From a virus (Duplodnaviria > Caudoviricetes), in IMG/VR virus record IMGVR_UViG_3300042333_000092, positions 1 to 25,043 of that record: DNA of 25,043 nucleotides; one strand, 5' to 3'. The notes beneath the pieces were generated by a model that was not told the origin of the DNA, made no database searches, and was given only the letters and a program-made list of their open reading frames with translations. Position numbers and translations under genes: made by a program. Each line of letters begins with the position of its first letter. Position 1 is the first letter of the stretch. Positions 12,901 through 25,043 of the stretch are shown one piece after another.

Positions 12901-15900
12901 TGCTGCAGCCAATTTAACATTTCCAACTACCGTATCTCTTAGAAACTTAAATGCATCTACGATTGGCTTTACGTATGGTCCAGAAATTTGCCTAAGAATT
13001 CCTCCAAGAATTTGCATAGGCTCTTTAAGATTTCTTAAAAGTTCTTTTCCAAGCTGAGGCAATATTCTAAAGATGTTTCCCATTTCTTTAAATATTCCTC
13101 TAGTGTCTTGTTTGAGAGTGTTGCCGCTTGTTTTTATTTCTGCCCTTGCGCCAATAATTTGATCTTTTATCATTTTTGCTTGTTTTGCTGCAGCAGACTG
13201 TGGCCTTGGTTCTTCTGCAGGCATTGTCTTTCCTCCACCAATTGGGGGTAACGGTGGAAGGGCTCCACCAGAAAGAATTGCTGCCTTTACTGATGCTGCA
13301 AAAGAGTTTCCAACTACCTTTCCTGCTGCTGATGCCCTGGTAGTATTTTTCTTAGTACCAGTTTCAATACCGTCTACATACTGCTTCATTGTATTTTCAG
13401 CAACCTTAGAAGGACTAGATATACCAAGTGCCGAATCCCCTCCAGCTCTTAGAGCAGATGCAGTTGCTGCTGCTCCAGATCTCACTGCAGCAATAACTTT
13501 CGGAGCAGTTGTAGATGCACCTGGTCTTGAAGCCATTTGATCTGCTGCACTAAGGGGAATTGCTTTTGGAGAAGATAGGTGACCAAAGTGCATTGGACCA
13601 GAAATGCCTGCTTTTTGACCAGCCCACTCTGAGAGACCTCTCCCAAATCCTTTATATCCAATCCCAAGCCTGTCTCTTGTAGTTGGATTTTCCATAGAAC
13701 GTAAGGACCTTACTCCCATTAGGGAGGCTCTTCCTAGTGGGTCTGCGTGACCAGCCCCCGTTCTATTTAGTGTTGTTATTGGTGCAGTGTATCCAGGTGC
13801 CCCCATAAACTGCATTGCGGAAGTTCTTAGTGGCCCACTCAAGACTCTTCGTCCTGTAGCAGTCTCTTGTGCCTTTATTGCAGCTGCAGTTGTTTTTGCT
13901 GCTCTTAATCTGGCCTGCTCTAATTGTTGTTCGTTTAAGGTTGCTTTTCCAGTTGCCTTAATTGTTTGGTCAACTTCTGCTTGAAAATTATTATAAAATT
14001 GATTCATTACTGGGGTCAGTCTTTTGTATGCGGCCTCTGCAACAGCAACTTCTTGAGCTGTTTTTTTAGCAAACCCTCTTGCAAATCCCGCAGCTAATCC
14101 AGATCCCAATTGTTCTGCGGATGGGGCCGAGGTTGCTAATTTTGAAAGATTGGCGGAGGCGGTCATAGGAACTACTTGGTTTGTATATCCAGTAATGCCA
14201 CTATTAAACCCTGGTAAAGTTCCTGCATTCATTGCAGCAATAATTGAGGAATATTTTTGTGTTGCTTCTTTTGTTACAACAGACTCTCCTGGAGTAAGAA
14301 GTGCTGGTATGGTGTCTTCATTACCCATTCCAGGAACTTTTGTAACTCCCTTGCTGTATCCGCGAGCAACGACTCCCCTAGTCTGTGGACCAGTTACTAT
14401 AGATCTACCAGCTTTACCCCTAGGACTAGCTGCACCCATCATCATGGGGGCTGACATAACTGTTGCACTTAAAGCTTTTGAATAATTACCAAGCATTCCA
14501 ACAAGGCTATCTAATGCTTTTCTTTGACCCAGGAATTTTCCTGTAAGATTATCAGTTGACCTGCTTAGTGCATCTGCTGCCCCTCTTGCTTCATGCTCTT
14601 CTGCTGTCAAGTGCTGGAATGCACTAGAGTCTCCTTTTAGTCGAGCAAAAAACTTTCTTGTAGTTTGAGTTAATTTCACTATATTTGCAATACCATTTGC
14701 AAGCAAACCTATTGTCATAAGGATAATAGGACCTATTCCTGCAACGACCGCAATACCTATGGTTATAGCTTTTTTAATTCCATCTGGTAAGTCATTAAAA
14801 GCATTTGCTATTTTTGCAACAAAATCAATTACTGGCATTATTGCCTTCATAAATGTTTCGCCAATTGGAGCAATGGATACCTTTAGTCTTTCCATTGCTG
14901 CTGCAAATTTGGTGCTGGTAGCTTCTTCAATCTTAGAAAGTTCTTTTTCTGAAACAGAGGCCAAATCTTCTACAGACATGCTGGTTAGTTCAAGAGTTCT
15001 TTTTGCCTGACTACCATCTCTAACTAGGTTCTTGAATAATGCCCCCAACCTTGCATACTGATAAGTTCCAAAAACCTTTTGCAAAACTTGTTGTTGTTCA
15101 AAGTCTCCAAGTGTGGCAAGAGCAGTTCCAAAATCATCAAGGGTAGCCATAAGGTCTCCCTTATTTTTTTGAGTAATAGCATCAATGCTTATTCCATACT
15201 TACCCATTTCTTCTCTAGCTGCCTTAGTTGGATTAATTAATCTTCCAAGACCTGACTTAATGGCGTTTGCTCCTTGTTCTGCAGTAACGCCTCCCTCTCT
15301 CATAGCAGTCATCATTACAGCAAGATCTTTTATATCTCCACCAAGTCCCTTGACAACAGGGGCCACTCTAGGAATAGCGGCAGCCATATCTTGCATAGTA
15401 AGGATTGTTTCGTTTTCTGTGACGTTAAGAAAATCAATTGTAGATGTTAAATCTTCATTGGAAACACCAAATGCGGTTTGTAGAGCAATGGTTGCGCCAA
15501 GTGCTTCATCATATTCCATCAACCCAAGGGTTGCCAATCTTATAGTTTGTTCCGTAGCCGCACTTAGGCTTTCTCCCTGTGCTCCAGTAGCAGCTACCTT
15601 TGCTGCAAGCTCTATCGTGCTAGAAAGACTTTTACCATACTTTGTATATTCCATACCAAGATCTTTTACTGCCTCAAGATTTCTTTCCATTTCAGCAGTT
15701 GTAGTTGACAGATTTCCATAAACTCTTTTAAAAGAAATTGATGATTGATCTATCTCTTTAAATGTTTTTGCTGCAACAGTACCCAGCATTGCTAAGGGTA
15801 GAGTGAATCCCACCATAAGCTGACGACCAGCCCACTGAGTATTTTTACCCCAGTTAAGAAGCTTTGTTGATCCTAAATCAATCATTCTATTCATTAATAC

Positions 15901-16392
15901 TTGTCTTTGTGTTGCCATTGCAGAAGCTGAGGCCATATTGTTTAAGTGATTTGGAGTAAGGGCCATAGCTTGAGAAGCACCCGTGGCTGTTTTTCCTAGA
16001 GCAACATACTGAGTTTGCATTCTTCGAACATTTTGTTCGGCAACGCGAGACATCATATCGAATTCTCGTTTAAATACTCTACTCATTCCTGGAAGCTGAG
16101 ATGCAGCGTATCTGGAATATTGACCAAGAGATAGCCTTCCTTTGTCTATTGACTCAGAGAATCTATCTGTCGCAGTAGTCATTGGAATTATTTGAGCATT
16201 CCACATCCTACTTGCATTAGCACTATTCATAAGTGCTTTATTCAATGCTGATTGTTGTGCTAAGGCTCCGGCACTTGATGCTGCCATACCTTGGTTTGTT
16301 GCAGCCACTTGAGCTTGCAATGATTTTAATTGAGCAAGCGCCTGCGACGTATTAACAATTACATTAATATTAGCATTTGCTGAAGTCGCCAT
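6973..16392 (-). CDS. Tape measure protein, unusually long (3139 aa)
   Basis: Follows the chaperone genes; SD AGGTGA at 16408-16403. TP901-like core in the first ~500 aa ('GVTAEQGANAIKSGLGRL'), hydrophobic segments, Ala/Lys-rich amphipathic repeats, late coiled coil, and terminal 'DSVSAMLTPGEFV...YNNYSVSVNVSG'. Confidence 0.93.
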   Translation of the reverse strand: MATSANANINVIVNTSQALAQLKSLQAQVAATNQGMAASSAGALAQQSALNKALMNSANASRMWNAQIIPMTTATDRFSESIDKGRLSLGQYSRYAASQLPGMSRVFKREFDMMSRVAEQNVRRMQTQYVALGKTATGASQAMALTPNHLNNMASASAMATQRQVLMNRMIDLGSTKLLNWGKNTQWAGRQLMVGFTLPLAMLGTVAAKTFKEIDQSSISFKRVYGNLSTTTAEMERNLEAVKDLGMEYTKYGKSLSSTIELAAKVAATGAQGESLSAATEQTIRLATLGLMEYDEALGATIALQTAFGVSNEDLTSTIDFLNVTENETILTMQDMAAAIPRVAPVVKGLGGDIKDLAVMMTAMREGGVTAEQGANAIKSGLGRLINPTKAAREEMGKYGISIDAITQKNKGDLMATLDDFGTALATLGDFEQQQVLQKVFGTYQYARLGALFKNLVRDGSQAKRTLELTSMSVEDLASVSEKELSKIEEATSTKFAAAMERLKVSIAPIGETFMKAIMPVIDFVAKIANAFNDLPDGIKKAITIGIAVVAGIGPIILMTIGLLANGIANIVKLTQTTRKFFARLKGDSSAFQHLTAEEHEARGAADALSRSTDNLTGKFLGQRKALDSLVGMLGNYSKALSATVMSAPMMMGAASPRGKAGRSIVTGPQTRGVVARGYSKGVTKVPGMGNEDTIPALLTPGESVVTKEATQKYSSIIAAMNAGTLPGFNSGITGYTNQVVPMTASANLSKLATSAPSAEQLGSGLAAGFARGFAKKTAQEVAVAEAAYKRLTPVMNQFYNNFQAEVDQTIKATGKATLNEQQLEQARLRAAKTTAAAIKAQETATGRRVLSGPLRTSAMQFMGAPGYTAPITTLNRTGAGHADPLGRASLMGVRSLRSMENPTTRDRLGIGYKGFGRGLSEWAGQKAGISGPMHFGHLSSPKAIPLSAADQMASRPGASTTAPKVIAAVRSGAAATASALRAGGDSALGISSPSKVAENTMKQYVDGIETGTKKNTTRASAAGKVVGNSFAASVKAAILSGGALPPLPPIGGGKTMPAEEPRPQSAAAKQAKMIKDQIIGARAEIKTSGNTLKQDTRGIFKEMGNIFRILPQLGKELLRNLKEPMQILGGILRQISGPYVKPIVDAFKFLRDTVVGNVKLAAALFVNDIKKIPVILKGAVSAFTTKVKSAFEMAALRTSVAMDSIKSLPAKVKSAYENAAIRTIIALDSIKKLPETMKNKAADLQRRFNDFKTNLPQNLMRAKNQAFYRGQDAINRGKESLRGISEKFAKMRERFSASNAQAASSLREGSMRGAARSYVPDAAAAQVKTISEQITKAATNVKAQLTQAAKSVTDSARLAKILLKDGDLRGAMRAMTPDKVAQAFTAATKPIINASKVAYGKLVDGAKFIDSKVKGAAEVVSKKLSSAGQKLSAAGAKLANSIQVAGQALAMKDPRTALRALTPDKVASALGSAKVRAGEMYGAARDKAVSAALSAKATGITAYNALLARDVKTFIKALTPDKVWAASSKLVASISNAGKQVAAAGKFAYDTIIFNAKAAIALGPGIIKDGFNYVRSSLITGANFIKDTIAVNVRAALVVGASEIKKAFVTAKTFIANGGKFIFDTVKVNIGAALLLAKNEITRIGGILKTEGPKLKASLTDAAKGMVGAVKGAGVILADSIKSVGSLVRAAGASLVQGGKGFLKGGFNENTGTNRGQRLAGSGNTAMMGLMGLSMAASFAGGSVGEMAQKIMPVTMGLMGLQMILPMLTNPMGLAIIATTALVGGFIYLRKQLDDTAKEAANLGANIGGVANGMKIIEEATGFKAPDAKDRLFRFSDEDREAMGQFGSYFESEGGSKFIEDLRNATSEERYQKVSTLLTQAVASGLEEDKAKAFGMAIAEATGDALLNSSIARDFANQVFGQGSKTLIDLEETRMKSAPEVDLSKINLEGGRFGATNRKIEKETKESGGGISGYFSNILRTINVFNTAIDVVGGQAESIEKVAVAAEGLGFALQTIQNLTTAEAVLEEERSNGIIKYEEYAKRLSELNGLQEDAANYIGEIYSLGADSGAMSQALGNQLSFAGFSEDTISRVSEAFNPDALAKQFFGEDKTFEGLGENERNYVEQVLTKTLSGLTPENVSQRLQDIEASYTDMAEKAVQAMTDGTMDALGGLDFFFNKENISDYISSRMGGGIAGVGGLGGTSPEKLASNLLKQDTELKKMGTDSLQVFTRLGEFIDVDFGKKILSSKEDILKFGDIVAKLGKYKDINLEIVMKNKNLTPELIISSIEKINKIKLDPDIFGRVPLDGEKLVTTLVKAGVEIDDLPEKISKGAKKLEEFGKEAVDSLGDLKPKIVPKIIASVFGKSASTSEGIANALNSAFPDGLKPIDIMVLLSLKGDDLAIALLSNPLAMKAAKAGEKTFTQSVVVDGEVINRTQVVPQSLLSVAPFLSGGTAATEDTTDDTEDTGGGGAAEKQKSALQEMISALNASLKLYGTAKTLTKKILKSKKDFNNFLKELSFDGGVSDQLREMNLSESLIADLLSLGGKNAKRIMKALGGRSGLTRLDKASTVSKAGQRVDEATSRQEREGYKATARTRLEKDGSFTKEEIDKILESEEDVEIIAKFPIKKNKDKWNELKSALQSDAKIELTVELKPDLEKFDEAKQIIEEAYDELERKKVNELADKFKEANGATVEEMERQVVLNQRIITQEQDKIDKKQEEISDYQRTNDLIQQGMDDVKRQDELRNRVSEGISKDLESMSKQEDEIRKAHDKRIEALDKVAAINDYIVNQQKQQLGLSQALSSGDIYAATAAAQEMRATSTQFAAEQARQGLQEGMENQVAGLRTSGGLTREQAEQQIADIKEQSYQTSLLLRIEEDKIYANNLLVRDLTNQIYIINEDMIEPLNNKNLALQRTLDYHRENEAYAIRELALAGVTRAEWERKAGEIEASITPAKNLDIALAGVAGSYLAVYEAALKALSVTGMTTPNIGTLPAEAADDSSWEFIGGRPVFANSGGMIKKYSGGGSILGQGSRDSVSAMLTPGEFVIKKSMVDKYGIPMLSKINQGSFFMPKFNTSADPETKVSGSAQSGANIVAPMYNNYSVSVNVSGSNASADEIANKTIMKIKQMQGTQIRSGRGY

Positions 16393-16414
16393 TTTTAAAT
16401 ATTCACCTTATTAA

Positions 16415-16423
16415 ATTATACCA
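16415..16423 (-). promoter_or_regulatory. Extended -10 promoter TGGTATAAT upstream of the tape measure gene
   Basis: Perfect TGnTATAAT in a 60-bp intergenic gap, followed by an SD and ATG. Confidence 0.7.
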
Positions 16424-16452
16424 TTAGGCACATCTTTTTTCATATAGTTTTC

Positions 16453-17162
16453 TTATGAAAATGGGTTTTTCGGATTGTTGTCTTTTCCTTTTCCTGCAGA
16501 GTATTCTAACCCTTTTCCAATTCCAAAACCAGCTTTTGATGCATTATGTCCTTGCAAAGAAGTTATGTCACTAGAATCTTTAGAATTCCCCCCGCTAAAA
16601 ACTCTTGATTTCATATCTTCCCATTCTTTTTGACCACGATCTTTTCCATTTTCACCATCAAGATCTACTCCTTGTATTGCTGCAAAAAACTTCTTTTCTT
16701 GATAGTCGTCATCTCTTTTTGCTGTTAATATTGCAGTGAGTTCTGGCATGGAAAGATTACTTTCTAATTCTTCATAATCTTTCCAAATACCCAAAAGGAA
16801 TACTTCAGATTCTAGTTTTGCGAGGTCTAACTCTTTCCAAGAGTCGCCGTCGTCAGAACGTTTCCCTCTGCATCCAGTTTAATTCCTGCTGCTGCTTCGA
16901 TTACCTTATACACACTGGGAAGGTCAATATTATCTTCTAGTTCTTCACGATTTTCAGCATACTTTTCATTATATTGCTTCATAGCAATCTGTACGCAATC
17001 CATCAAGAGATCCATAGACTGATCGTTGCTTTCTGCAACATCTGTAATTCCCTCAAACTTTTTCATAAATTCTCTTAGAAGTGAAATCTTTAGTGGACGC
17101 ATCTTTACTTTAGTTCCATCCATCATTTCGATTTCTGATGAGTCATAAACTGTTGTTGCCAT
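16453..17162 (-). CDS. Tail assembly chaperone, long form (gpGT-like, about 236 aa) made by -1 ribosomal frameshift
   Basis: Slippery heptamer G GGA AAC at 16866-16860 in the chaperone frame. The -1 frame is open (RSDDGDSWKELDLAKLESEVFLLGIWKDY...) and is the frame of the 16453..16794 ORF. Confidence 0.88.
16827..17162 (-). CDS. Tail assembly chaperone, short form (gpG-like)
   Basis: 111-aa acidic, helical-looking protein between the major tail and tape measure genes; purine-rich GAAGGGA upstream of ATG. Confidence 0.88.
   Translation of the reverse strand: MATTVYDSSEIEMMDGTKVKMRPLKISLLREFMKKFEGITDVAESNDQSMDLLMDCVQIAMKQYNEKYAENREELEDNIDLPSVYKVIEAAAGIKLDAEGNVLTTATLGKS
16860..16866 (-). promoter_or_regulatory. 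Programmed -1 frameshift site GGGAAAC
   Basis: Canonical X XXY YYZ phase (codons 100-101 are GGA AAC), ten codons before the TAG. Confidence 0.88.
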
Positions 17163-17195
17163 TTTGCACGTTCCCTTCGGTTAGTTTGTGAGAAT

Positions 17196-17204
17196 ATTAT
17201 ATCA
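17196..17204 (-). promoter_or_regulatory. Extended -10 promoter TGATATAAT upstream of the chaperone gene
   Basis: Perfect TGnTATAAT, intergenic, directly downstream of a hairpin. Confidence 0.7.
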
Positions 17205-17205
17205 T

Positions 17206-17244
17206 GACTAGACCCCCCGTGCAATGCACTGGGGGGCCATAGCC
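17206..17244 (-). terminator. GC-rich hairpin after the major tail gene (terminator or mRNA stabiliser)
   Basis: GGCCCCCC-A-GTGC-ATT-GCAC-GGGGGGTC, extendable by GGCTA/TAGTC. No poly-U tail. Confidence 0.65.
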
Positions 17245-17262
17245 TATTCAATTATTTTTTTA

Positions 17263-17943
17263 TCAGGTTGTGCTATTGATAGTTCTATCAACAATTTTTC
17301 CATATGATCCATTGTTTGCAGGAAGCAAACGGAATGAAACTTCGAACATCGAAGCCTCGTCACGCTTGGCTGATACCGTTACGTTGTCAATTGACAAAGC
17401 ACGGTAAGCAACATAAATGCGCTCAATGTAAGCATCTGGATCGCAATCGCCAGTTCCTGGACCAACTGCAACAAGACCTCTTTCTACTGGACATTCTCCA
17501 ATAGCACCAGAAGTTAGCTCAAGGCTTGAAGCCTGAGAAATTGTTCCTGTGTCCATTGGTGTATCCAATGTGACGCTGCCATTGTAGTCTGTACTTGGTG
17601 CTGCAATTGCAACAAGAAGGTTTTCGAGTGTTGCTTCAGCAAATGCTGTTGCAAGATTCACCTGCATACCTTGCTTGTAAAGCTTTGCAACGTCAAGAAG
17701 TTGATCTACCTGAACCTCACCAAAATCTGGTTGGAATTGTAGTTCAAGACCGTTTGTGGTGTAACCAATGTTACGAACAAGAGCCTGACCCTCAGCTGAA
17801 TCGGTAAGGGTATCTAGATAAGAATCGTCCTCAACAAAGTCTGGGAAGACTACTGTATCTGGATCGAATTCTCCTGCCGTTGAAACGAACATGGCTGCGG
17901 CACCAACAATAATGTTTTTTGAATCTCCGCGTGTATATGCCAT
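17263..17943 (-). CDS. Major tail tube protein
   Basis: 226 aa; 'NIIVGAA', 'IGYTTNGLELQFQP...VQVDQ', 'AEATLENL', 'FEVSFRLLP' fit siphophage tube proteins. SD GAGAGGT; synteny. Confidence 0.88.
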   Translation of the reverse strand: MAYTRGDSKNIIVGAAAMFVSTAGEFDPDTVVFPDFVEDDSYLDTLTDSAEGQALVRNIGYTTNGLELQFQPDFGEVQVDQLLDVAKLYKQGMQVNLATAFAEATLENLLVAIAAPSTDYNGSVTLDTPMDTGTISQASSLELTSGAIGECPVERGLVAVGPGTGDCDPDAYIERIYVAYRALSIDNVTVSAKRDEASMFEVSFRLLPANNGSYGKIVDRTINSTT

Positions 17944-18006
17944 AATTTTTTACCTCTCTTTCCATATATTATTTTTTTATATATGGGTGGTGTTTCCTCA
18001 ATATAG

Positions 18007-18012
18007 ATTATA
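18007..18012 (-). promoter_or_regulatory. -10 hexamer TATAAT upstream of the major tail gene
   Basis: TGCTGTATAAT in the intergenic gap; the TG is not at the canonical extended position. Predicts a start near 18000. Confidence 0.5.
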
Positions 18013-18022
18013 CAGCATTTTT

Positions 18023-18556
18023 TTACAGATAATCTTCCAGGGAGTTAGTATAGTGATATTCCATATCAATTATAAACTCAGAAACATAATAAGGTCTTAT
18101 GCTAAAATCTCTTAAATTTTCTGTTTCTGTTGCCAAAGATGATGCAACTTGATAAACTCTAAGCTTGTGAAAGAATATGGGATGTATATCCTTGCCGCCA
18201 TGGTCTCTTATCCACTTGTTTATATCTTTTCCTGCATCATCTGATCTGTCCAGGATAGTCTGAATTGCAGATCCCCAGATAAAAGTATCTCTTTCTTTTG
18301 CTTTTAGGTTATACCTGATTTCTTCACATTTTATAGGATAAAAAGAATCCTTCATTTTGGTAAACATCCTGTCATAAATAATATAACTTTTGTTTTCCCA
18401 GCTTTTCTTTCCTGAAGATGCATCTCCCAATGGGAAAATTGGTATTGTTTGTCCATAGTTCTTGCTTTCAGACAAGGATGGCTGAATAGCTTTCATAGTA
18501 TCCCAAAGATACTTATTAACAATTGCTGGAGCTACCACCAAATCTTCAAGACTCAT
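18023..18556 (-). CDS. Tail terminator / tail completion protein
   Basis: 177 aa, immediately before the major tail gene; ATGA overlap with the upstream gene; 'YIIYDR' and terminal beta strand pattern. Function mainly from synteny. Confidence 0.6.
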   Translation of the reverse strand: MSLEDLVVAPAIVNKYLWDTMKAIQPSLSESKNYGQTIPIFPLGDASSGKKSWENKSYIIYDRMFTKMKDSFYPIKCEEIRYNLKAKERDTFIWGSAIQTILDRSDDAGKDINKWIRDHGGKDIHPIFFHKLRVYQVASSLATETENLRDFSIRPYYVSEFIIDMEYHYTNSLEDYL

Positions 18557-19227
18557 ACAATCGCCTCCCTATTATAACTAAAGTACTTTCTTCCAGCTAT
18601 AACTCCAACAGACTTTCCAGACTTTGCTCCTTGAGAAAACATAGCTGAAAATTCTTTTGGATTCCTTAATTTTTTCATAAGTGGCTCAAGTATTGAAAAA
18701 ACAAAATAAGAATTAAAAAACTCTTCTATTGCTCCTCCAAAACTTCCAGCAACTTGATCTCCTCCTGGATGAGCCACATAGATAGATTTTGTTGTAAAAA
18801 CCGTTTCGTCTCCATCTTGAAAAACAAGAACTGGAGAGTTCTTTGGAGAGATGGTTACGCTAATGGCGTTTTCCATAATCTCTGCTTTATTAGAAAATAC
18901 TTGTCCCGATTCTGAAGCTGGCTGATTGGACAAAACAAATTTTCCGTTAAGAAGAATAGATGTGTTTGTTGCATTAACATTTATCTTAAATAACCTTGAT
19001 GACCGATCCCCCGTTTTTTTCCATTCATACACATGATGAAGCATTTCTGGATTAGATCTTGCTTTAGAATCTATATACATGCCCAAAGCTTCAGCAGTAT
19101 ATCCTCCAAGAACCCTGTTAAATTCCAACCTATTTAAATTTATTCCTTGAATAAATCCTTCTGTGTATTGAACGGTATTCTTAAAAACTTTTTTAAAGTC
19201 ATTTGACTCTAGCTTGACAGTTATCAT
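18553..19227 (-). CDS. Neck / tail-completion protein (HK97 gp10-like position)
   Basis: 224-aa basic protein; 'ISPKNSPVLVF...VAHPG' motif as seen in gp10-like neck proteins; ATGA overlaps at both ends. Confidence 0.6.
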   Translation of the reverse strand: MITVKLESNDFKKVFKNTVQYTEGFIQGINLNRLEFNRVLGGYTAEALGMYIDSKARSNPEMLHHVYEWKKTGDRSSRLFKINVNATNTSILLNGKFVLSNQPASESGQVFSNKAEIMENAISVTISPKNSPVLVFQDGDETVFTTKSIYVAHPGGDQVAGSFGGAIEEFFNSYFVFSILEPLMKKLRNPKEFSAMFSQGAKSGKSVGVIAGRKYFSYNREAIV

Positions 19228-19658
19228 TTTTTCAAATCCTGTCTATCTGACCTGTTAAAGAAAATCTTATAGTACTCTATTTCATTCCAAGGATTAACAT
19301 AAGGCTCGACAGAGAGTATTTCATATATTACAGACTTTCCTTCTTCTTCAACGTATAAACTTGTATTTGTTCTTTTATCTTTTATATCAGTAATGATTAT
19401 ATTAGTTATAGGATAATATAAACCTTCTAAAGATACTCTAGGATCTTTTTTGGTTCTTCCAATTAACTTATCTTCATACTCAAAAAACTTACCACCTTTT
19501 ATTCCATCTCTTTCTACCGCCCCTAAAATTTCTGCATACCCCAAAAGGGTTTGATCAAGGCTCCAAGTTTTTTGTTCTATTCCAAGATCATCTTGAGACT
19601 CAGTAGAATAATAAATATCCATACTCATAGACATCAAGTGATCATAGCAGGAGTCCAT
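19224..19658 (-). CDS. Head closure / stopper protein (SPP1 gp16-like position)
   Basis: 144 aa, beta-rich; 'QDDLGIEQKTW' and 'YEILSVEP' pattern; TAATG overlap with the adaptor gene. Confidence 0.65.
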   Translation of the reverse strand: MDSCYDHLMSMSMDIYYSTESQDDLGIEQKTWSLDQTLLGYAEILGAVERDGIKGGKFFEYEDKLIGRTKKDPRVSLEGLYYPITNIIITDIKDKRTNTSLYVEEEGKSVIYEILSVEPYVNPWNEIEYYKIFFNRSDRQDLKK

Positions 19659-20614
19659 TATAGTACTCCAAGGCGGTATATGGGTATTGAGTAATTTTGC
19701 AAAATTCTATCTACTAAAAGATTTCCAGTTCCTCTTAAAGAAAGGTCACTATACTTTACCCTAAATTGATCTGTTTGATATTCTGTAACATATTTTTGGA
19801 TATAAGAAAGCCTTCCACATTTCATATCATCCATGAGCATTCTTGCTGCATCTTTAATATCTTGTGGAACTACGGGCCATCCAAAATCTCCATAAACTGT
19901 ATAATCCCAATCTCTTGGAAATATAGAAGGTCCTTTTATTTCTGTTAAAGCTAAAATTTGATCGTAGTCATCTCCATAAAGCATAAAAGAATCAGATGCC
20001 CCAACTGGGATGCTTACAGTCTTAGACTGTTGCCTATTATAACTACCGTCAACGCCTATGGTCATTGCAGTTTTATCTGGACTTAACATATAGGAATACT
20101 GTCCTGTAATTGGAGTAACTCTATCATAAACTTTTACATTGTTTTCATAGACAGCATTTATCTTGTTTGTTCTCTTAGATAGAGGTAGATAGTCTGCTCC
20201 AAGACCTGTGGTTTCTATTTCCCCGCGAGTATAGTAAAATCCTCCCACCATAGTGTCTATAATTTGTCTTGCAGTTCTTTCTAGATTAAGATACTCTTCA
20301 CTGTCACATCCAGGATCACCCAATAGCAATGGATTAATATACGGTCTGTAAATATACAGATTATCCATAACAACGGTTTCATCTGGTTCATCTTCTACAT
20401 CAAGGCTATAAATATAAAGAGAGTAGGTTTCATCATATTTTTCAAATGTTGTCGGAAGCTCATACGAAACAACACCATTTGAGTCTGATGTGAGTGTAAT
20501 TGATAGTTCTAATTCTGTATGATCGTCATAGATCTCCAGGGCATAGTCTGTGCTTGGCGTAAGGCCATCATAGGACACCGATAATGGAAAGGGTGTCTGT
20601 CTGAGTATGTTCAT
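19658..20614 (-). CDS. Head-tail adaptor/connector with an extra N-terminal beta domain
   Basis: 318 aa; 'LERTARQIIDTMVG' and 'YTVYGDFGWPVVPQDIKDAARML' match gp6/gp15-like adaptor motifs. Confidence 0.72.
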   Translation of the reverse strand: MNILRQTPFPLSVSYDGLTPSTDYALEIYDDHTELELSITLTSDSNGVVSYELPTTFEKYDETYSLYIYSLDVEDEPDETVVMDNLYIYRPYINPLLLGDPGCDSEEYLNLERTARQIIDTMVGGFYYTRGEIETTGLGADYLPLSKRTNKINAVYENNVKVYDRVTPITGQYSYMLSPDKTAMTIGVDGSYNRQQSKTVSIPVGASDSFMLYGDDYDQILALTEIKGPSIFPRDWDYTVYGDFGWPVVPQDIKDAARMLMDDMKCGRLSYIQKYVTEYQTDQFRVKYSDLSLRGTGNLLVDRILQNYSIPIYRLGVL

Positions 20615-20617
20615 TTT

Positions 20618-21085
20618 TTATAGGCCGTAATGAGTTGCTACCTCTTGAGGGGTTGTTTTACGAACACCCTTACGAGTAAGCCACATTTCGGCTGCCTCCT
20701 TCGTAACAATGTTATATCCTTTGCTAACCGTTCCTACCGAAACCCAATTCATATTCTTTTCAGAATAAAGGGCAATCTTCTCACTAGAATCTTTTTTTTC
20801 TGATGAAACATCTTTTTTATTACTAAAAGTATTTGCTGATCCCACAATAACTACATTATTTTCGTTTTGTCTTGAATTAGACATAGGGATTCTTTTTCTC
20901 ACTACAGTCTTTTCAGATCCAATAACTTGATTGTCTTCTGCCTGTTCAACAACAGAAATCTTTGCATTTGTATTTAACAATACTGACAAGATAGAACTTT
21001 TTGTTTTTGCTTGAGAAATATCGATATAATTCTCTTCAGCATATTCTTTAAGCTGAGCAACAGTCATTTTTTCAAAGTTTGACAT
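20618..21085 (-). CDS. Small protein with an N-terminal Rho-N/HeH-like motif
   Basis: 'FEKMTVAQLKEYAEENYIDISQAKTKSSILSVL' fits the Rho-N/helix-extended-helix pattern. SD AAGGAAGG. Confidence 0.7.
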   Translation of the reverse strand: MSNFEKMTVAQLKEYAEENYIDISQAKTKSSILSVLLNTNAKISVVEQAEDNQVIGSEKTVVRKRIPMSNSRQNENNVVIVGSANTFSNKKDVSSEKKDSSEKIALYSEKNMNWVSVGTVSKGYNIVTKEAAEMWLTRKGVRKTTPQEVATHYGL

Positions 21086-21106
21086 TTATGTACCTTCCTT
21101 TAGTTA

Positions 21107-21115
21107 ATTATATCA
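21107..21115 (-). promoter_or_regulatory. Extended -10 promoter TGATATAAT downstream of the capsid hairpin
   Basis: Perfect TGnTATAAT, intergenic, followed by an SD and ATG at 21085. Confidence 0.7.
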
Positions 21116-21128
21116 GAATATGCTTGAA

Positions 21129-21152
21129 GGGGACCAGCTAATGCCAGTCCCC
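21129..21152 (-). terminator. Hairpin after the major capsid gene (terminator or mRNA stabiliser)
   Basis: GGGGACTGGC-ATTA-GCTGGTCCCC: 10-bp stem whose two G-U pairs work only on the minus-strand RNA. Only TT follows. Confidence 0.7.
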
Positions 21153-21173
21153 CACAAACTTATTTAGTTGTGA

Positions 21174-22316
21174 TTAGGAAGGGTCTACTGCTGCATCAGC
21201 ATAAGCTACTGCATCAAGTTCTTCCCATGCAATTCCGAGACGAACGAATACGGTGTATTCGATTGTGTCCTTCTTTGCTTGGTATTCACGGTTGACTGTG
21301 ATGTCGCGTTGGAATCCCCATACACGGTTAGCAGGGAATGTTAGGTCAACATAGTCTGCTGGGTAGTAAGGAACTTCAAGAACATCTACACCAAGCACTC
21401 GCGTAATGTTAGCATTACCGAATGTTTGTCCTGCACCATCAAGGTATGCTTGACGGTTACGCTCTGTACCTGCAACTCTTGGATCGAATGCTGCTGCGAT
21501 TGCATCAGCAAGGGTTCCGTTGTTAGCAACGATACCAGCAAAAGCATCTGTTCCTGCGTAGAAACGCAAGTTGCTCTTGACTGCACGGTACTTACGAGGC
21601 AATGCGTAAATGATTTGCTGCATTACTTCTGGGGTCCATGCATTGTTAGACACTGTGACGACTGCTTCATGAGCGTCTCCACTTGTCTTAACCTGATTGA
21701 CAAAACCATCCATAATTCCGAGGAATGGGTCAGCTCCGCCGTCACCATTAATTGCTAGGTCTTCGATATCATTAGCAAAAGCATTCGTCATCAAACGAAC
21801 GAGATGATCCTCCAGAGCGCCACCTTCGATATTATCTTCAAGTGCCTCCGTTGAAACTTCCCAGTCAAGACGAATCTTCTTTGTGGTAAGTTCTACCTTC
21901 GAGAAGGTTGCACCTGCGTTTTCATAACTACCAAGTGCCTGTGCTGCTGCACGAATAACACGCTCGCCAACGTTGACTTTTTCGATCTCCATTGTGTTTG
22001 CTCGCATGGTTACTCTGCGACCATCCTTAGCCAGGACTGTTCCATCCCAAACATAGTCGATAAAACGACGAGCCTGTTCTGGATTCAAAAGACCTGAAAG
22101 TACTCCTGTTGGATTAACAGCGTTTGGTCCTGTCGTATCTCCATAGTTAGCGTTTGGGACGTTACCCAATACACCAGCAGCTGGATCTACAACGGAACCG
22201 ATTCCACCTGCGGCAACTGCGCCTTCACCTTGGTAAAGACCTGGTGCTGCTGCTGGTTCTGGGCTCCATCCATCAGTTTCACTGCTTGGTTGATTCTTTA
22301 AAATTTTTTCTGACAT
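21174..22316 (-). CDS. Major capsid protein (HK97 fold)
   Basis: 380 aa after the protease; 'GLLNPEQARRFID', 'FSKVELTTKKIRLDWEVSTEALEDNIEG', 'DIEDLAINGD'. Strong SD GGAGGTGA at 22330-22323. Confidence 0.93.
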   Translation of the reverse strand: MSEKILKNQPSSETDGWSPEPAAAPGLYQGEGAVAAGGIGSVVDPAAGVLGNVPNANYGDTTGPNAVNPTGVLSGLLNPEQARRFIDYVWDGTVLAKDGRRVTMRANTMEIEKVNVGERVIRAAAQALGSYENAGATFSKVELTTKKIRLDWEVSTEALEDNIEGGALEDHLVRLMTNAFANDIEDLAINGDGGADPFLGIMDGFVNQVKTSGDAHEAVVTVSNNAWTPEVMQQIIYALPRKYRAVKSNLRFYAGTDAFAGIVANNGTLADAIAAAFDPRVAGTERNRQAYLDGAGQTFGNANITRVLGVDVLEVPYYPADYVDLTFPANRVWGFQRDITVNREYQAKKDTIEYTVFVRLGIAWEELDAVAYADAAVDPS

Positions 22317-22348
22317 TGTATTTCACCTCCATTTTTCTTTTTGTATTT

Positions 22349-22942
22349 TTATGCGAATAGGTCGGACTTTGTGAGGAAACGTCCACCCCATAGTGATTTG
22401 TTCTGAGTCTTTTCAAATAGAAAGGACTCCTGCACGACCTCTCCAAGGTCGCCAGACTTGCGAAAAGCGGTGTCTTTTTCTACTGCATCCACACGCTTTC
22501 CAAACTCATTCTTTACAGAATCAACATCTTGTTTAACACCCGATACGGTCTTGTTGAGTTCTTCTACTTTCTCGTTAAGAGCCTTAATGGTGTCAGCAAG
22601 CATGTTCATTGTAGAATTCATTTGATTGGCGACTGATTTTGTTGCCTCAATGCTTTCAGCATACGCTTTAGCTAGATCCTCATCATCAGACTTCTTCATG
22701 TCGCCCTTCATTTCTTCGGAATCATCTTCCTCTTCTTCGTCATCTGCTTCTTCGTCTTCCATCTTTTCAGTTGTTTCGGTATCTTCTGCCTTCTCAACTT
22801 CTTCTGACTTCAACTCTTCTGCAGCATCTTCTTTAACTGACTTCTCCACAACTTCTTCTACAGCGGCTTCTACTGTTTCTTCAGTAAGAACTTCTGCAAC
22901 TTCTGTTGCTTCGTCAGAATTTTTGATTACTTCATTTTCCAT
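22349..22942 (-). CDS. Putative nested capsid scaffolding protein (in-frame internal start, 197 aa)
   Basis: AAGGAGGT at 22957-22950, 7-nt spacer, ATG at 22942 (codon 246), placed at the start of the acidic region. Confidence 0.7.
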   Translation of the reverse strand: MENEVIKNSDEATEVAEVLTEETVEAAVEEVVEKSVKEDAAEELKSEEVEKAEDTETTEKMEDEEADDEEEEDDSEEMKGDMKKSDDEDLAKAYAESIEATKSVANQMNSTMNMLADTIKALNEKVEELNKTVSGVKQDVDSVKNEFGKRVDAVEKDTAFRKSGDLGEVVQESFLFEKTQNKSLWGGRFLTKSDLFA

Positions 22943-23677
22943 TTTGCTTACCTCCTTTGCATCATTTTTGATAGTAGAAAGAATAGACTTTACTACTTCT
23001 GACTTTTGTGCGTCATTAGTTTCAACAAAACCAATGTTCTCCATATTCTTATCGCATCTAGGACAGTCTGATGAACTATCAGAAGATAGTTGAACTGTAT
23101 CGTCCTCTTTACACCAGAATACGCTTTCAATGAGGGCTTTTGCAAGATATCCTCCTGCATGTCCCTTTTCAACACTAATGACATTTGCATATTGATTAGC
23201 AGGATTATCAACAAGGGAAAGTTCAAACAAGTCGTATTCTTTAATAATTCTAATTGACTTATCCATTTCCTTGTTGTATACATCTTCGTAATCTTTTACA
23301 TTGCCACCGATTGAAAATCCTGTGAGTGTTTTATCAAGAACCTTTTCCCAAGTATCTTGAGCACCCTTACTTACATATGCAGAAACATAAATTCCCTTAT
23401 ACAATTCTCCAGTTGTCTGATCGTAGAATGAGTCTTCTTTAAAAGATACTAGCTTTCCTACTGCCTTTTTGTCATCATGCATTTCTCGAATGTTTCCACG
23501 GAAGCCCTCAAAAGCTTTTATGCTTGCTTCTGAAGGAACAACGTCATTCTGCCTGTCGATGTTATCCAAAGTAGCGAATCCTGACACGATTCTTCTTTCA
23601 ATGTCAACCTTAGCTATAGGCATTGATAGCCTTAAGCTGTTTCCTTCTGATTCCCAATGAGCTTTAGAAATTTCCAT
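22349..23677 (-). CDS. Prohead maturation protease (HK97 family) fused to an acidic/coiled-coil scaffold region
   Basis: 'IVSGFATLDNIDRQNDVV', 'REMH', 'TGFSIGG' and 'ELSLVDNPAN' are the HK97-type protease motifs; the C-terminal half is E/D-rich, then coiled coil. Confidence 0.9.
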   Translation of the reverse strand: MEISKAHWESEGNSLRLSMPIAKVDIERRIVSGFATLDNIDRQNDVVPSEASIKAFEGFRGNIREMHDDKKAVGKLVSFKEDSFYDQTTGELYKGIYVSAYVSKGAQDTWEKVLDKTLTGFSIGGNVKDYEDVYNKEMDKSIRIIKEYDLFELSLVDNPANQYANVISVEKGHAGGYLAKALIESVFWCKEDDTVQLSSDSSSDCPRCDKNMENIGFVETNDAQKSEVVKSILSTIKNDAKEVSKMENEVIKNSDEATEVAEVLTEETVEAAVEEVVEKSVKEDAAEELKSEEVEKAEDTETTEKMEDEEADDEEEEDDSEEMKGDMKKSDDEDLAKAYAESIEATKSVANQMNSTMNMLADTIKALNEKVEELNKTVSGVKQDVDSVKNEFGKRVDAVEKDTAFRKSGDLGEVVQESFLFEKTQNKSLWGGRFLTKSDLFA

Positions 23678-23687
23678 ATTAGTTACT

Positions 23688-23696
23688 ATTATACCA
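23688..23696 (-). promoter_or_regulatory. Extended -10 promoter TGGTATAAT upstream of the protease gene
   Basis: Perfect TGnTATAAT 10 nt before the ATG, with no SD in between. Confidence 0.7.
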
Positions 23697-23713
23697 ACTT
23701 TTTTATCAAAATG

Positions 23714-25043
23714 TTATGAAGTACGTCTTCCTTCGCCAGCAGGGTTTCTTCCAGTGGTTGTAGCAACACTATCAGATGCATTATTTGCTCTTTCTGTGTC
23801 TCTTTGTCTGTTCCCTGCAAGATCTGCACGGGCATCAGTTGCCTGTCTTGGAGTCATTTCAAAAACTTCATCTCCATCTGGACGATGAGGCATTCCAAGT
23901 TGTTCTCTCGCTTCGTTTGGAGTGATAACTTGAGTCTTGAGATATCTTTCCAGAATCTGAGATTGAGAAACTTCATCAGTAAGAGTAAGTTCCTTAAACT
24001 TAAGACTAACCAAATCTGTTTTTGTTCTTACAACCTTATTAATCATTTTTTCAATATATCGTTGTGCTGGTCTTGTTACTTGTTCCTTAAAAGTTCTATC
24101 TTGAGACAATGCTGCTGCAAGACCTCCTGCATCTACACCGCCCAACTTTGAAAGAGGAACCTGATGTGCCATCAAAATGTTGTCACGATTTTTTTGATGA
24201 TATTTATCAAAAGAAGCTTCTTGAACATTTGCTTCAATCGGAACCATTGTAAATTCAATCTTGTTTCCATCTTGATCCGCAGGAAGTGGGACGTACAGAG
24301 TTCTATGATTCTGTCCCTTAAGACCTGTTTGCAAGAATCTAAACAATCTATCCTCTGACTCACTATCAAGCTTTGCTCCCTTTACAACAACAATGTATCT
24401 TGGAACTGCTTTATTTTCAAAGTAGTCAATATTAAATTGAGCAGCAAGCTGATCTCCCTTCAAAGAAAGATAAGCAGAAAGAATATCGGGTACGCCATAA
24501 AAAGTATTCAAAGGGGAATATGCCTTTAGGTGGATAACTTCGTTTGGTCTTGGATCTTCAGTAATTGGATTTGGATTAGTTCCCCCAAAGTTACGGAAAT
24601 AAACTACTTGTCCACTGACTATTTGTGTAAACCCATCTCTAATCCTTCTGACCCTCATGGTTGTTGCAGGAATGTGTCCAAAATATCCCACTTCACCCGT
24701 AACGGTTCTTCCTACTTCTATGTAGGCATTTCCTGTTGATTCAAGATCTAAGTTTACTTTTTCCATCGTTGTAAGAAAACTGTCATCGCTGTTTAGGCTT
24801 TCTATCCACTCAATAGCCTCACCCTTGATTCTCTCAAGTCTTTTCCTGGCTTTATCCATGGCACTTTGATTTTCCATGTTTTCCATACGAATAACTACGT
24901 CTGGGGCAGTCTCAAACCTATATCCAAGACCTACCGTGTTGGCTACCTTTGCATCAATAGCAGCATGGTTAGCAAAGTTTGTATCATAAAAGCTTGCCAA
25001 TTCATAAAGATTGTAAGGAGGGGTGATGACATCAAAAACACCA
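23714..25043 (-). CDS. Portal protein (PBSX/HK97-like family), 5' end outside the window
   Basis: The frame stays open past 25000 to the edge (GVFDVITPPYNLYELASFY). Motifs 'TGNAYIEV', 'HIPATTMR', 'NEVIHLK...FYGVPD', 'YFENKAVP', 'ITPNEAREQLG'. Confidence 0.93.
   Translation of the reverse strand, partial: GVFDVITPPYNLYELASFYDTNFANHAAIDAKVANTVGLGYRFETAPDVVIRMENMENQSAMDKARKRLERIKGEAIEWIESLNSDDSFLTTMEKVNLDLESTGNAYIEVGRTVTGEVGYFGHIPATTMRVRRIRDGFTQIVSGQVVYFRNFGGTNPNPITEDPRPNEVIHLKAYSPLNTFYGVPDILSAYLSLKGDQLAAQFNIDYFENKAVPRYIVVVKGAKLDSESEDRLFRFLQTGLKGQNHRTLYVPLPADQDGNKIEFTMVPIEANVQEASFDKYHQKNRDNILMAHQVPLSKLGGVDAGGLAAALSQDRTFKEQVTRPAQRYIEKMINKVVRTKTDLVSLKFKELTLTDEVSQSQILERYLKTQVITPNEAREQLGMPHRPDGDEVFEMTPRQATDARADLAGNRQRDTERANNASDSVATTTGRNPAGEGRRTS

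What the first reader, a model, noticed from the sequence alone, without database searches (positions are those of the whole stretch)
17982..22392. Candidate RNA-RNA link between capsid and tail expression: tail mRNA 5' end is antisense to the mRNA just before the capsid gene
Seen: the minus-strand sequence starting 6 nt after the TATAAT, 5'-UGAGGAAACACCACCCAUA-3' (18000-17982), is complementary to 5'-UAUGGGGUGGACGUUUCCUCA-3' (22392-22372). The duplex is 9 bp + 6 bp + 3 bp with a 1x2 loop and a one-base bulge. The target encodes the scaffold's LWGGRFL end, 56-76 nt before the capsid ATG. The leader segment is noncoding, C-rich in an AT-rich gap, and sits at the predicted transcript start. Inference: trans or long-range pairing that coordinates the two most abundant virion proteins, for example by opening the leader hairpin or altering scaffold/capsid translation. 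I know of no description of such a link. Chance cannot be excluded without statistics.
Basis: partly seen in the sequence, partly recalled or inferred. Interest (0 to 1): 0.72.

Follow-up and report, generated by a model that had tools for sequence, protein, structure and literature searches.

The report
Phage head and tail mRNAs pair
In a widespread group of actinobacterial phages, the predicted first bases of the tail-tube message are complementary to a stretch just ahead of the capsid gene, and the match survives complete sequence change between relatives, so the two messages likely pair and probably keep head and tail production in step.

Summary
The tail-tube leader (18000-17982) pairs best with 22392-22372 of 2501 sense-strand windows. 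The match is family-wide: with the leader defined from the -10 box alone, the region before the capsid gene was the best partner in 116 of 141 distinct homologous loci. Both sides change together, up to complete turnover in Streptomyces and Rhodococcus phages. Pairing starts at the predicted +1, the target usually lies in a hairpin loop, and both genes are followed by terminator-like hairpins, which points to pairing between two separate mRNAs. Most likely the capsid mRNA shields the 5' end of the tail mRNA from decay, as hly does for prsA2 in Listeria; this step is inferred. No RNA data confirm transcription or pairing. Eight literature searches listed no description; the scan noted the same kind of link before on another genome (e1-6467812).

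The parts
18007..18012 (-). -10 box (TATAAT) of the predicted tail-tube promoter
   Evidence: Sequence; TATAAT/TATACT at the same spacing in the 78 loci that include the leader. Not listed by the consensus promoter scan, which needs a -35 match. Start site not mapped.
17982..18000 (-). 5' seed of the tail-tube mRNA; 18000-17992 is the 9-nt core, the C-rich part makes the second helix
   Evidence: GAGGRAAC present in the leader in 79 of 79 rows that include it (78 loci plus the window); pairing rises from 0.36-0.55 at positions 1-6 after the -10 box to 0.88 at position 7 and 0.97-1.0 at 9-12.
17962..17986 (-). AU-rich leader hairpin, overlapping the end of the duplex; present in close relatives, not family-wide
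   Evidence: Folds; sequences; coordinates.
17952..17957 (-). Shine-Dalgarno site of the tail-tube gene, outside the duplex
   Evidence: Sequence; duplex ends 23-84 nt before the tail start codon in 33 representatives.
17263..17943 (-). Major tail (tube) protein gene, 226 aa
   Evidence: PHROG 2175; 36-44% identical to proteins annotated major tail protein in Streptomyces and Rhodococcus phages.
17211..17238 (-). Terminator-like GC hairpin after the tail gene
   Evidence: a hairpin stronger than all sampled capsid-CDS background follows the tail stop in 31 of 33 representatives.
22372..22392 (-). Target in the last codons of the protease/scaffold ORF; core 22380-22372 (Arg-Phe-Leu codons)
   Evidence: Most synonymously conserved four-site window of 485 conserved sites in protease, capsid and tail genes; Leu435 is the only invariant-codon Leu of 37 (36 freshwater representatives).
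22358..22390 (-). Predicted hairpin (arms 22390-22381 and 22367-22358) that displays the target core in its loop
   Evidence: Core less paired than flanks in 27 of 33 representatives; loop-display score in the top 20% of nearby positions in 23 of 33; own arms pair better than permuted arms, 5 of 20000. An ungapped alifold did not recover it.
22349..23677 (-). Head maturation protease / scaffold ORF, 442 aa, with -10 box at 23693-23688 and a likely internal scaffold start (SD + ATG, 22958-22940)
   Evidence: PHROG 9427; internal SD+start near residue 206-385 listed in most representatives.
21174..22316 (-). Major capsid protein gene, 380 aa; SD at 22330-22324
   Evidence: PHROG 1623 and PHROG 10; homologs annotated major capsid protein.
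21129..21152 (-). Terminator-like GC hairpin after the capsid gene
   Evidence: stronger than all sampled capsid-CDS background in 33 of 33 representatives.

Best explanation
The tail-tube leader and the end of the protease/scaffold gene are complementary and change together across the phage group, so the two mRNAs likely pair in trans, and the capsid mRNA probably shields the 5' end of the tail mRNA from decay. Steps: (1) shown in sequence: a conserved 8-13 bp core, extendable to 10-22 bp with loops, unique in the locus. (2) Predicted: the tail gene has its own promoter and terminator, the seed is the transcript's first nucleotides, and the target is displayed in a hairpin loop of the separate protease-scaffold-capsid mRNA. 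(3) Predicted: the free 5' end binds the loop and the C-rich part invades the hairpin's 5' arm. (4) Inferred by analogy with hly-prsA2: a paired 5' end resists RNase J and other 5'-end-dependent decay, so tail mRNA survives in proportion to capsid mRNA. (5) Inferred: this keeps the two most abundant virion proteins in ratio. I put the RNA-RNA pairing at about 0.93 and this direction and mechanism at about 0.5.
For: Rank 1 in 116 of 141 loci with a pairing-blind leader call; 140 of 141 reach -15 kcal/mol once the register is curated. Cognate -21.4 versus non-cognate -11.6 kcal/mol over 34 representatives, 0 of 20000 permutations. Column f-1 holds T:A 88, C:G 32, A:T 10 of 135 rows. On the tree, 14 same-branch co-changes in register, 11 giving a Watson-Crick pair, against 0 in six slid registers (130 rows); 28 distinct 9-nt cores. 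Unrelated cores in Rhodococcus phages Francesca, Trina, NiceHouse and in L192, L283, L257. Pairing starts at position 7 after the -10 box. Seed duplex present in the two-strand minimum-energy fold in 33 of 33. Duplex does not reach the tail RBS. Terminator-like hairpins. RNase J is present in the two actinobacterial-labelled MAGs that hold homologous contigs. Precedent: PMC8722363 passages.
Against: No RNA evidence for the start site, the terminators or the duplex. Nothing tested here shows an effect on stability; it is chosen because the pairing is pinned to +1 and the translation models failed. In 29 of 33 representatives the target is inside a translated ORF 11-27 nt before the stop, so ribosomes would strip the duplex often. 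The RNA-versus-DNA strand test was inconclusive: G-U 19 versus A-C 7 in 130 rows but 4 versus 4 in 26 representatives; sense duplex better than antisense in 23 of 34. One relative, L221, lacks the pair, so it is dispensable in at least one lineage. The cognate test used segments cut around the cognate helix, which favours cognate pairs, and several rows were mis-anchored. MAG labels do not prove the host.
Confidence: 0.5

Rival explanations
1. The tail leader acts on the capsid mRNA's processing or decay: binding in the loop would mask an endonuclease site, block 5'-3' decay just before the capsid RBS, or direct a cut that separates scaffold from capsid coding regions. It may run together with the best explanation as mutual protection.
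For: The target always lies 41-98 nt before the capsid start in a loop. irvA 5' UTR protects gbpC by pairing in its coding region (cited in PMC8722363, passage seen). Extended duplex 10-22 bp.
Against: It does not need the seed to be pinned to +1, which it is. The duplex is interrupted by loops and short for RNase III (recalled). No cleavage data.
Confidence: 0.2
2. The tail leader represses capsid translation: invading the hairpin frees its 3' arm, which then pairs with the capsid SD or start codon, giving feedback from tail to head.
For: Arm-to-start pairing is strong in some lineages (L034, L036, L203, L208, L019, NiceHouse, L222, Francesca; -9 to -11 kcal/mol); predicted arm-start pairs rise from 2.8 to 4.3 on binding, up in 20 of 33.
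Against: Family-wide the RBS opening energy does not change (up in 14, down in 10 of 33; p 0.51); cognate arm:start pairs are not better than permuted (3296 of 20000); only 3 of 33 arms beat shuffles at 5%.
Confidence: 0.13
3. Pairing activates translation by opening an inhibitory structure over the capsid or the tail Shine-Dalgarno site.
For: The target is pyrimidine-rich like an anti-SD. Tail RBS opening energy falls 8.43 to 6.97 when the first 20 nt are occupied; leader occlusion exceeds shuffles clearly in L001 (this genome), L032, L208, L192, L177.
Against: Capsid side improved in only 8 of 33. Tail side barely exceeds shuffled leaders overall (20 of 33).
Confidence: 0.1
4. The match works at DNA level (inverted protein-binding or recombination sites), reflects a third fixed partner such as 16S rRNA, or is chance.
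For: On DNA the two sites are an inverted repeat; the common core resembles an SD and an anti-SD; the G-U versus A-C test is inconclusive.
Against: Cores turn over completely while staying complementary, which one protein or rRNA partner would not allow; complementarity stops at the predicted +1; no inverted arrangement in 199 of 199 loci with both genes; the core is not a general promoter motif.
Confidence: 0.04

Closest known systems
Listeria hly 3'UTR - prsA2 5' end mRNA-mRNA interaction (PMC8722363, passages seen; also one passage of review PMC8406224)
   Same: [quoted passage not shown]
   Different: Here the partner site is a hairpin loop at the end of a coding sequence or in an intercistronic gap, not a 3'UTR; it is phage-encoded, links two virion structural proteins, and shows deep compensatory turnover; no effect has been measured.
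B. subtilis RoxS - yflS (named in a PMC8722363 passage) and S. mutans irvA 5'UTR - gbpC (same paper)
   Same: 5'-end pairing that protects from RNase J1 (RoxS); an mRNA 5'UTR that pairs in another mRNA's coding region (irvA).
   Different: RoxS is a dedicated sRNA. irvA fits the opposite direction of control (rival 1). Neither is a phage morphogenesis link.
IS10 RNA-IN / RNA-OUT and plasmid antisense RNAs (recalled; also named in scan note e1-6467812)
   Same: A free 5' end initiates pairing in a hairpin loop and extends into the stem.
   Different: Those RNAs are encoded on opposite strands of one locus, are fully complementary and block an RBS; here two same-strand genes 4.4 kb apart pair imperfectly and no RBS is covered.
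Stanwilliamsviridae (Streptomyces phages such as Muntaha, Comrade, Peebs, LukeCage) and Rhodococcus phages Trina, NiceHouse, Francesca
   Same: Homologous protease, capsid and tail-tube genes in the same order, and the same complementarity.
   Different: The window is an uncultured 36-44% tail-identity relative from the freshwater branch; their GenBank features in this region list only CDSs, no RNA element.

Membership tests
Trans mRNA-mRNA 5'-end protection (hly-prsA2 type) | [quoted passage not shown] | tested here: met
   By predicted start only: paired fraction jumps at position 7 after the -10 hexamer. Start not mapped.
Trans mRNA-mRNA 5'-end protection (hly-prsA2 type) | Two separately transcribed mRNAs | tested here: inconclusive
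   Own -10 box and terminator-like hairpins after both genes; no transcript data.
Trans mRNA-mRNA 5'-end protection (hly-prsA2 type) | Protecting sequence lies in a 3'UTR | tested here: not met
   Inside the protease/scaffold ORF in 29 of 33, across or after its stop in 4 of 33, always upstream of the capsid gene.
Trans mRNA-mRNA 5'-end protection (hly-prsA2 type) | Host has a 5'-3' exoribonuclease (RNase J) | tested here: inconclusive
   TIGR00649 above cut-off in 2 of 2 MAGs holding homologous contigs; the host of this phage is not established.
Trans mRNA-mRNA 5'-end protection (hly-prsA2 type) | Measured stabilisation with compensatory rescue | not testable with these tools
   Needs half-life and RNase assays.
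Cis-encoded antisense control (IS10 RNA-IN/OUT type, recalled) | Overlapping opposite-strand transcripts with full complementarity | tested here: not met
   Same strand, 4.4 kb apart, imperfect duplex.
Cis-encoded antisense control (IS10 RNA-IN/OUT type, recalled) | 5' end nucleates in a hairpin loop | tested here: met
   Predicted folds: core in a loop in most representatives.
Cis-encoded antisense control (IS10 RNA-IN/OUT type, recalled) | Duplex covers the ribosome-binding site | tested here: not met
   Duplex ends 23-84 nt before the tail start and 41-98 nt before the capsid start.
Anti-antisense translational activation (DsrA-rpoS type, recalled) | Target strand sequesters the SD and binding frees it | tested here: not met
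   No net change in capsid RBS opening energy in 33 representatives.
Any Rfam family | Covariance-model match | tested here: not met
   0 matches at E up to 5 in 16300-25043.
Stanwilliamsviridae | Formal whole-genome family placement | not tested
   Only a 25 kb fragment is held; structural genes are homologous.

The most novel reading that the evidence does not exclude
A large group of actinobacterial siphophages counts heads against tails with a direct mRNA-mRNA handshake: the tail-tube mRNA is stable and productive only while its first bases are bound to the capsid mRNA, and the bound capsid mRNA is in turn protected or re-folded, giving a protein-free, mutually coupled ratio control of virion assembly that has been kept through complete sequence turnover.
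Probability: 0.45. Interest if true: 0.9.

Novelty: new variant of a known kind. Interest (0 to 1): 0.82.

Why it matters
How a tailed phage matches head and tail output when the two major proteins come from different transcripts is largely unaddressed (my knowledge, not from a call). Functional mRNA-mRNA pairs are rare in bacteria: PMC8722363 (2020) named only irvA-gbpC before its own case. This one has unusually strong natural covariation, is present in cultured Streptomyces and Rhodococcus phages, and can be tested directly with synonymous and compensatory mutants. It also explains why the C-terminal codons of these scaffolds are frozen.

Tried and rejected
RNA data: no RNA holder listed; the one run, X1, is marked probably DNA, holds only relatives and is kept as contigs, so its depth profile was not used. 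Capsid anti-SD model and released-arm model: no family-wide support. Tail self-occlusion: near shuffled level. G-U versus A-C asymmetry: inconclusive. Ungapped alifold of the target region: did not recover the hairpin, probably because of loop indels and register shifts. Exact inverted-repeat scan: 1752 pairs, this gapped one not among the 25 shown. Consensus promoter/terminator scan: at chance level and missed the tail promoter. Frameshift or stalling at the RFL codons: rejected as the general role because the target lies after the protease stop in NiceHouse and L222. General promoter motif: rejected, one TATAMT-N-GAGGAAAC site each in 2 of 3 genomes searched, the third having another core. 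Weaselvirus phages Peregrin and Weasels2, whose tail gene was not among the tblastn hits shown and has no leader gap, lack the WxGxFL-type core and their best partners in the fetched 8 kb are coding positions; a weak control, as only that stretch was read. Automatic -10 calling picked another box in about 14 of the 25 loci that did not rank first (judged by eye). Scan look-ups by genome and by sequence were empty. Paper supplements were not opened; none is known to bear on the claims.
Full report
Context. The window is a 25 kb phage fragment, all structural genes on the minus strand: portal, head maturation protease (22349-23677), major capsid protein (21174-22316), five head and connector region genes, major tail protein (17263-17943), chaperones and a 3139-aa ORF in the tape-measure position. 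Its tail protein matches 132 GenBank phages, 127 Streptomyces and 5 Rhodococcus, among them Stanwilliamsviridae.

Observation. The leader starts 6 nt after TATAAT. The duplex is -25.0 kcal/mol; in a scan the target is the best of 2501 sense windows (-25.5, next -21.0). One of 100 shuffled leaders did as well anywhere in the window and 3 of 1000 at this site. That alone is suggestive, not decisive.

Homologs. I collected 300 loci; 169 of 301 sequences (window included) held both sites and 141 were distinct; L001 is identical to the window here. They collapse to 33 groups at 80% and 11 at 60% protein identity, so the 141 are not independent. In the first 80 loci GAGGRAAC follows the -10 box in 79 of 79 rows that include the leader, and GTTYCCTC lies at the scaffold end in 63 rows. 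With the leader defined only as 22 nt after an automatically called -10 box, the region before the capsid start was the best partner in the locus in 116 of 141. Of the 25 others, 11 had a good duplex outranked by 1-8 windows and about 14 had another box called; after curating the register 140 of 141 have a duplex of -15 kcal/mol or better, and L221 lacks it. That last count involves choosing the best register. In three near-complete genomes the target ranked 1, 1 and 2 among 13,260-17,334 windows on both strands.

Covariation. Streptomyces BK-type phages have GAGGAAGTGCCT against GGGCGCTTCCTC, with an A-U to G-C change at the synonymous third base of Arg; Peebs and LukeCage have TGAGGAAGTG against CACTTCCTCA; Francesca and Trina have GGTAGGAT against a site across the protease stop; NiceHouse has ACCGTAAGA against TCTTACGGT in the gap. 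Metagenomic lineages add TGACGAAGGT/ACCTTCGTCA (L192), GGAAGAAAAGC/GCTTTTCTTCC (L234) and TGAAGCGTTCC/GGAACGCTTCA (L283). Over 135 rows with the protein motif (6 lacked it) the nine core columns hold 1134 Watson-Crick, 32 G-U, 13 A-C and 36 other cells; a few rows there were mis-registered. After dropping 5 such rows, separate parsimony reconstruction found 14 branches where both sides of a column changed, 11 ending in a Watson-Crick pair, against 0 of 2-7 in six slid registers. Cognate pairs average -21.4 and non-cognate -11.6 kcal/mol in 34 representatives, 0 of 20000 permutations; own target was best for 19 of 34 leaders; against the nearest representative, own pairs were better in 24 and worse in 6 (segments were cut around the cognate helix). 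The Arg-Phe-Leu window is the most synonymously conserved of 485 sites in 36 freshwater representatives, so protein constraint does not explain it.

Anatomy. Pairing is near background at positions 1-6 after the -10 hexamer, 0.88 at position 7, 0.97-1.0 at 9-12 and back to 0.42 at 17 (33 representatives): the helix starts at the expected +1 (typical spacing recalled). The target core is less paired than its flanks in 27 of 33 and usually sits in a hairpin loop, also where the sequence is unrelated; the loop-display score has a median percentile of 0.11, a moderate signal. Strong hairpins follow the capsid stop in 33 of 33 and the tail stop in 31 of 33. A transcript that starts at the tail promoter cannot contain the target, so the pairing would be in trans. 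The seed duplex is in the two-strand minimum-energy fold in 33 of 33, mean gain -13.7 kcal/mol over the separate folds. No inversion between the sites was seen in 199 loci with both genes. The G-U versus A-C test did not separate RNA from DNA; the stop of complementarity at +1 and the bulges are the arguments for RNA.

Mechanism. Folding does not support a general effect on either ribosome-binding site, although some lineages, this genome among them for the tail side, show one. The fixed features are the seed at +1, the loop display and a duplex that stays 23 nt or more from the tail start. This is the anatomy of 5'-end protection: in Listeria the hly mRNA binds the extreme 5' end of prsA2 mRNA and blocks RNase J1 (PMC8722363, passages seen; PMC8406224, one passage). 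RNase J is present in the two MAGs, labelled Aquiluna and Nanopelagicales, that hold homologous contigs, and is studied in Streptomyces venezuelae (PMC12096830, listing and three passages, which did not address this point). I therefore commit to the capsid mRNA stabilising the tail mRNA, at about even odds, with action on capsid mRNA decay or processing as first rival. Ribosome traffic through the target in 29 of 33 representatives is a difficulty for any model with a long-lived duplex.

Novelty. Rfam gave no match. Searches listed no paper describing this link; I saw only listings and abstract openings, and the library lacks most subscription journals. The scan's note e1-6467812 reports the same kind of tail-leader to capsid-upstream complementarity on another genome; I found it after my analysis, could not see its sequence, and do not count it as evidence. 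It works like a known, rare kind of control, but fails the 3'UTR feature and is not filed as a member.

Verdict. Real, conserved, compensated complementarity; RNA-RNA pairing very likely; function inferred. New variant of a known kind, interest 0.82.

Noticed in passing
window 22958-22940 (-): Strong SD plus in-frame ATG at residue 246 of the protease ORF, with a counterpart in most representatives: likely an internally started scaffold protein nested in the protease gene.
   Followed up: partly
window 23693-23675 (-): The protease gene has a -10 box about 9-10 nt before its ATG and no GGAG/GAGG in 28 of 29 representatives: a near-leaderless start, probably weak next to the internal scaffold start.
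   Followed up: partly
L221 (tail leader and protease end): Only locus of 141 without the complementarity; short AT-only leader. A natural loss worth comparing.
   Followed up: partly
window, protease codons 392 and 412-417; capsid codons 314-345: Further stretches with high synonymous conservation; the 412-417 region folds as a small hairpin in L001, L036, L081.
   Followed up: no
window 17201-17162 and 21112-21085 (-): TATAAT boxes directly behind both terminator-like hairpins, ahead of the chaperone gene and the 155-aa gene; the chaperone gene's SD region resembles the seed in this genome but did not look conserved in L035.
   Followed up: no
L036 and relatives, capsid SD: In many freshwater members the capsid SD sits in a small UCAC/GUGA hairpin.
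   Followed up: no
L086 7708-8101, L087 7389-7801; window 16453-17162: Rhodococcus relatives are annotated with a frameshifted tail chaperone, while the window has two ORFs there; scan note e1-6128067 discusses this in another genome.
   Followed up: no
L139-L142: Homologous phage contigs lie in MAGs labelled Bacteroidota and Methylococcus as well as Actinomycetota, probably mis-binned, so MAG labels are weak host evidence.
   Followed up: no
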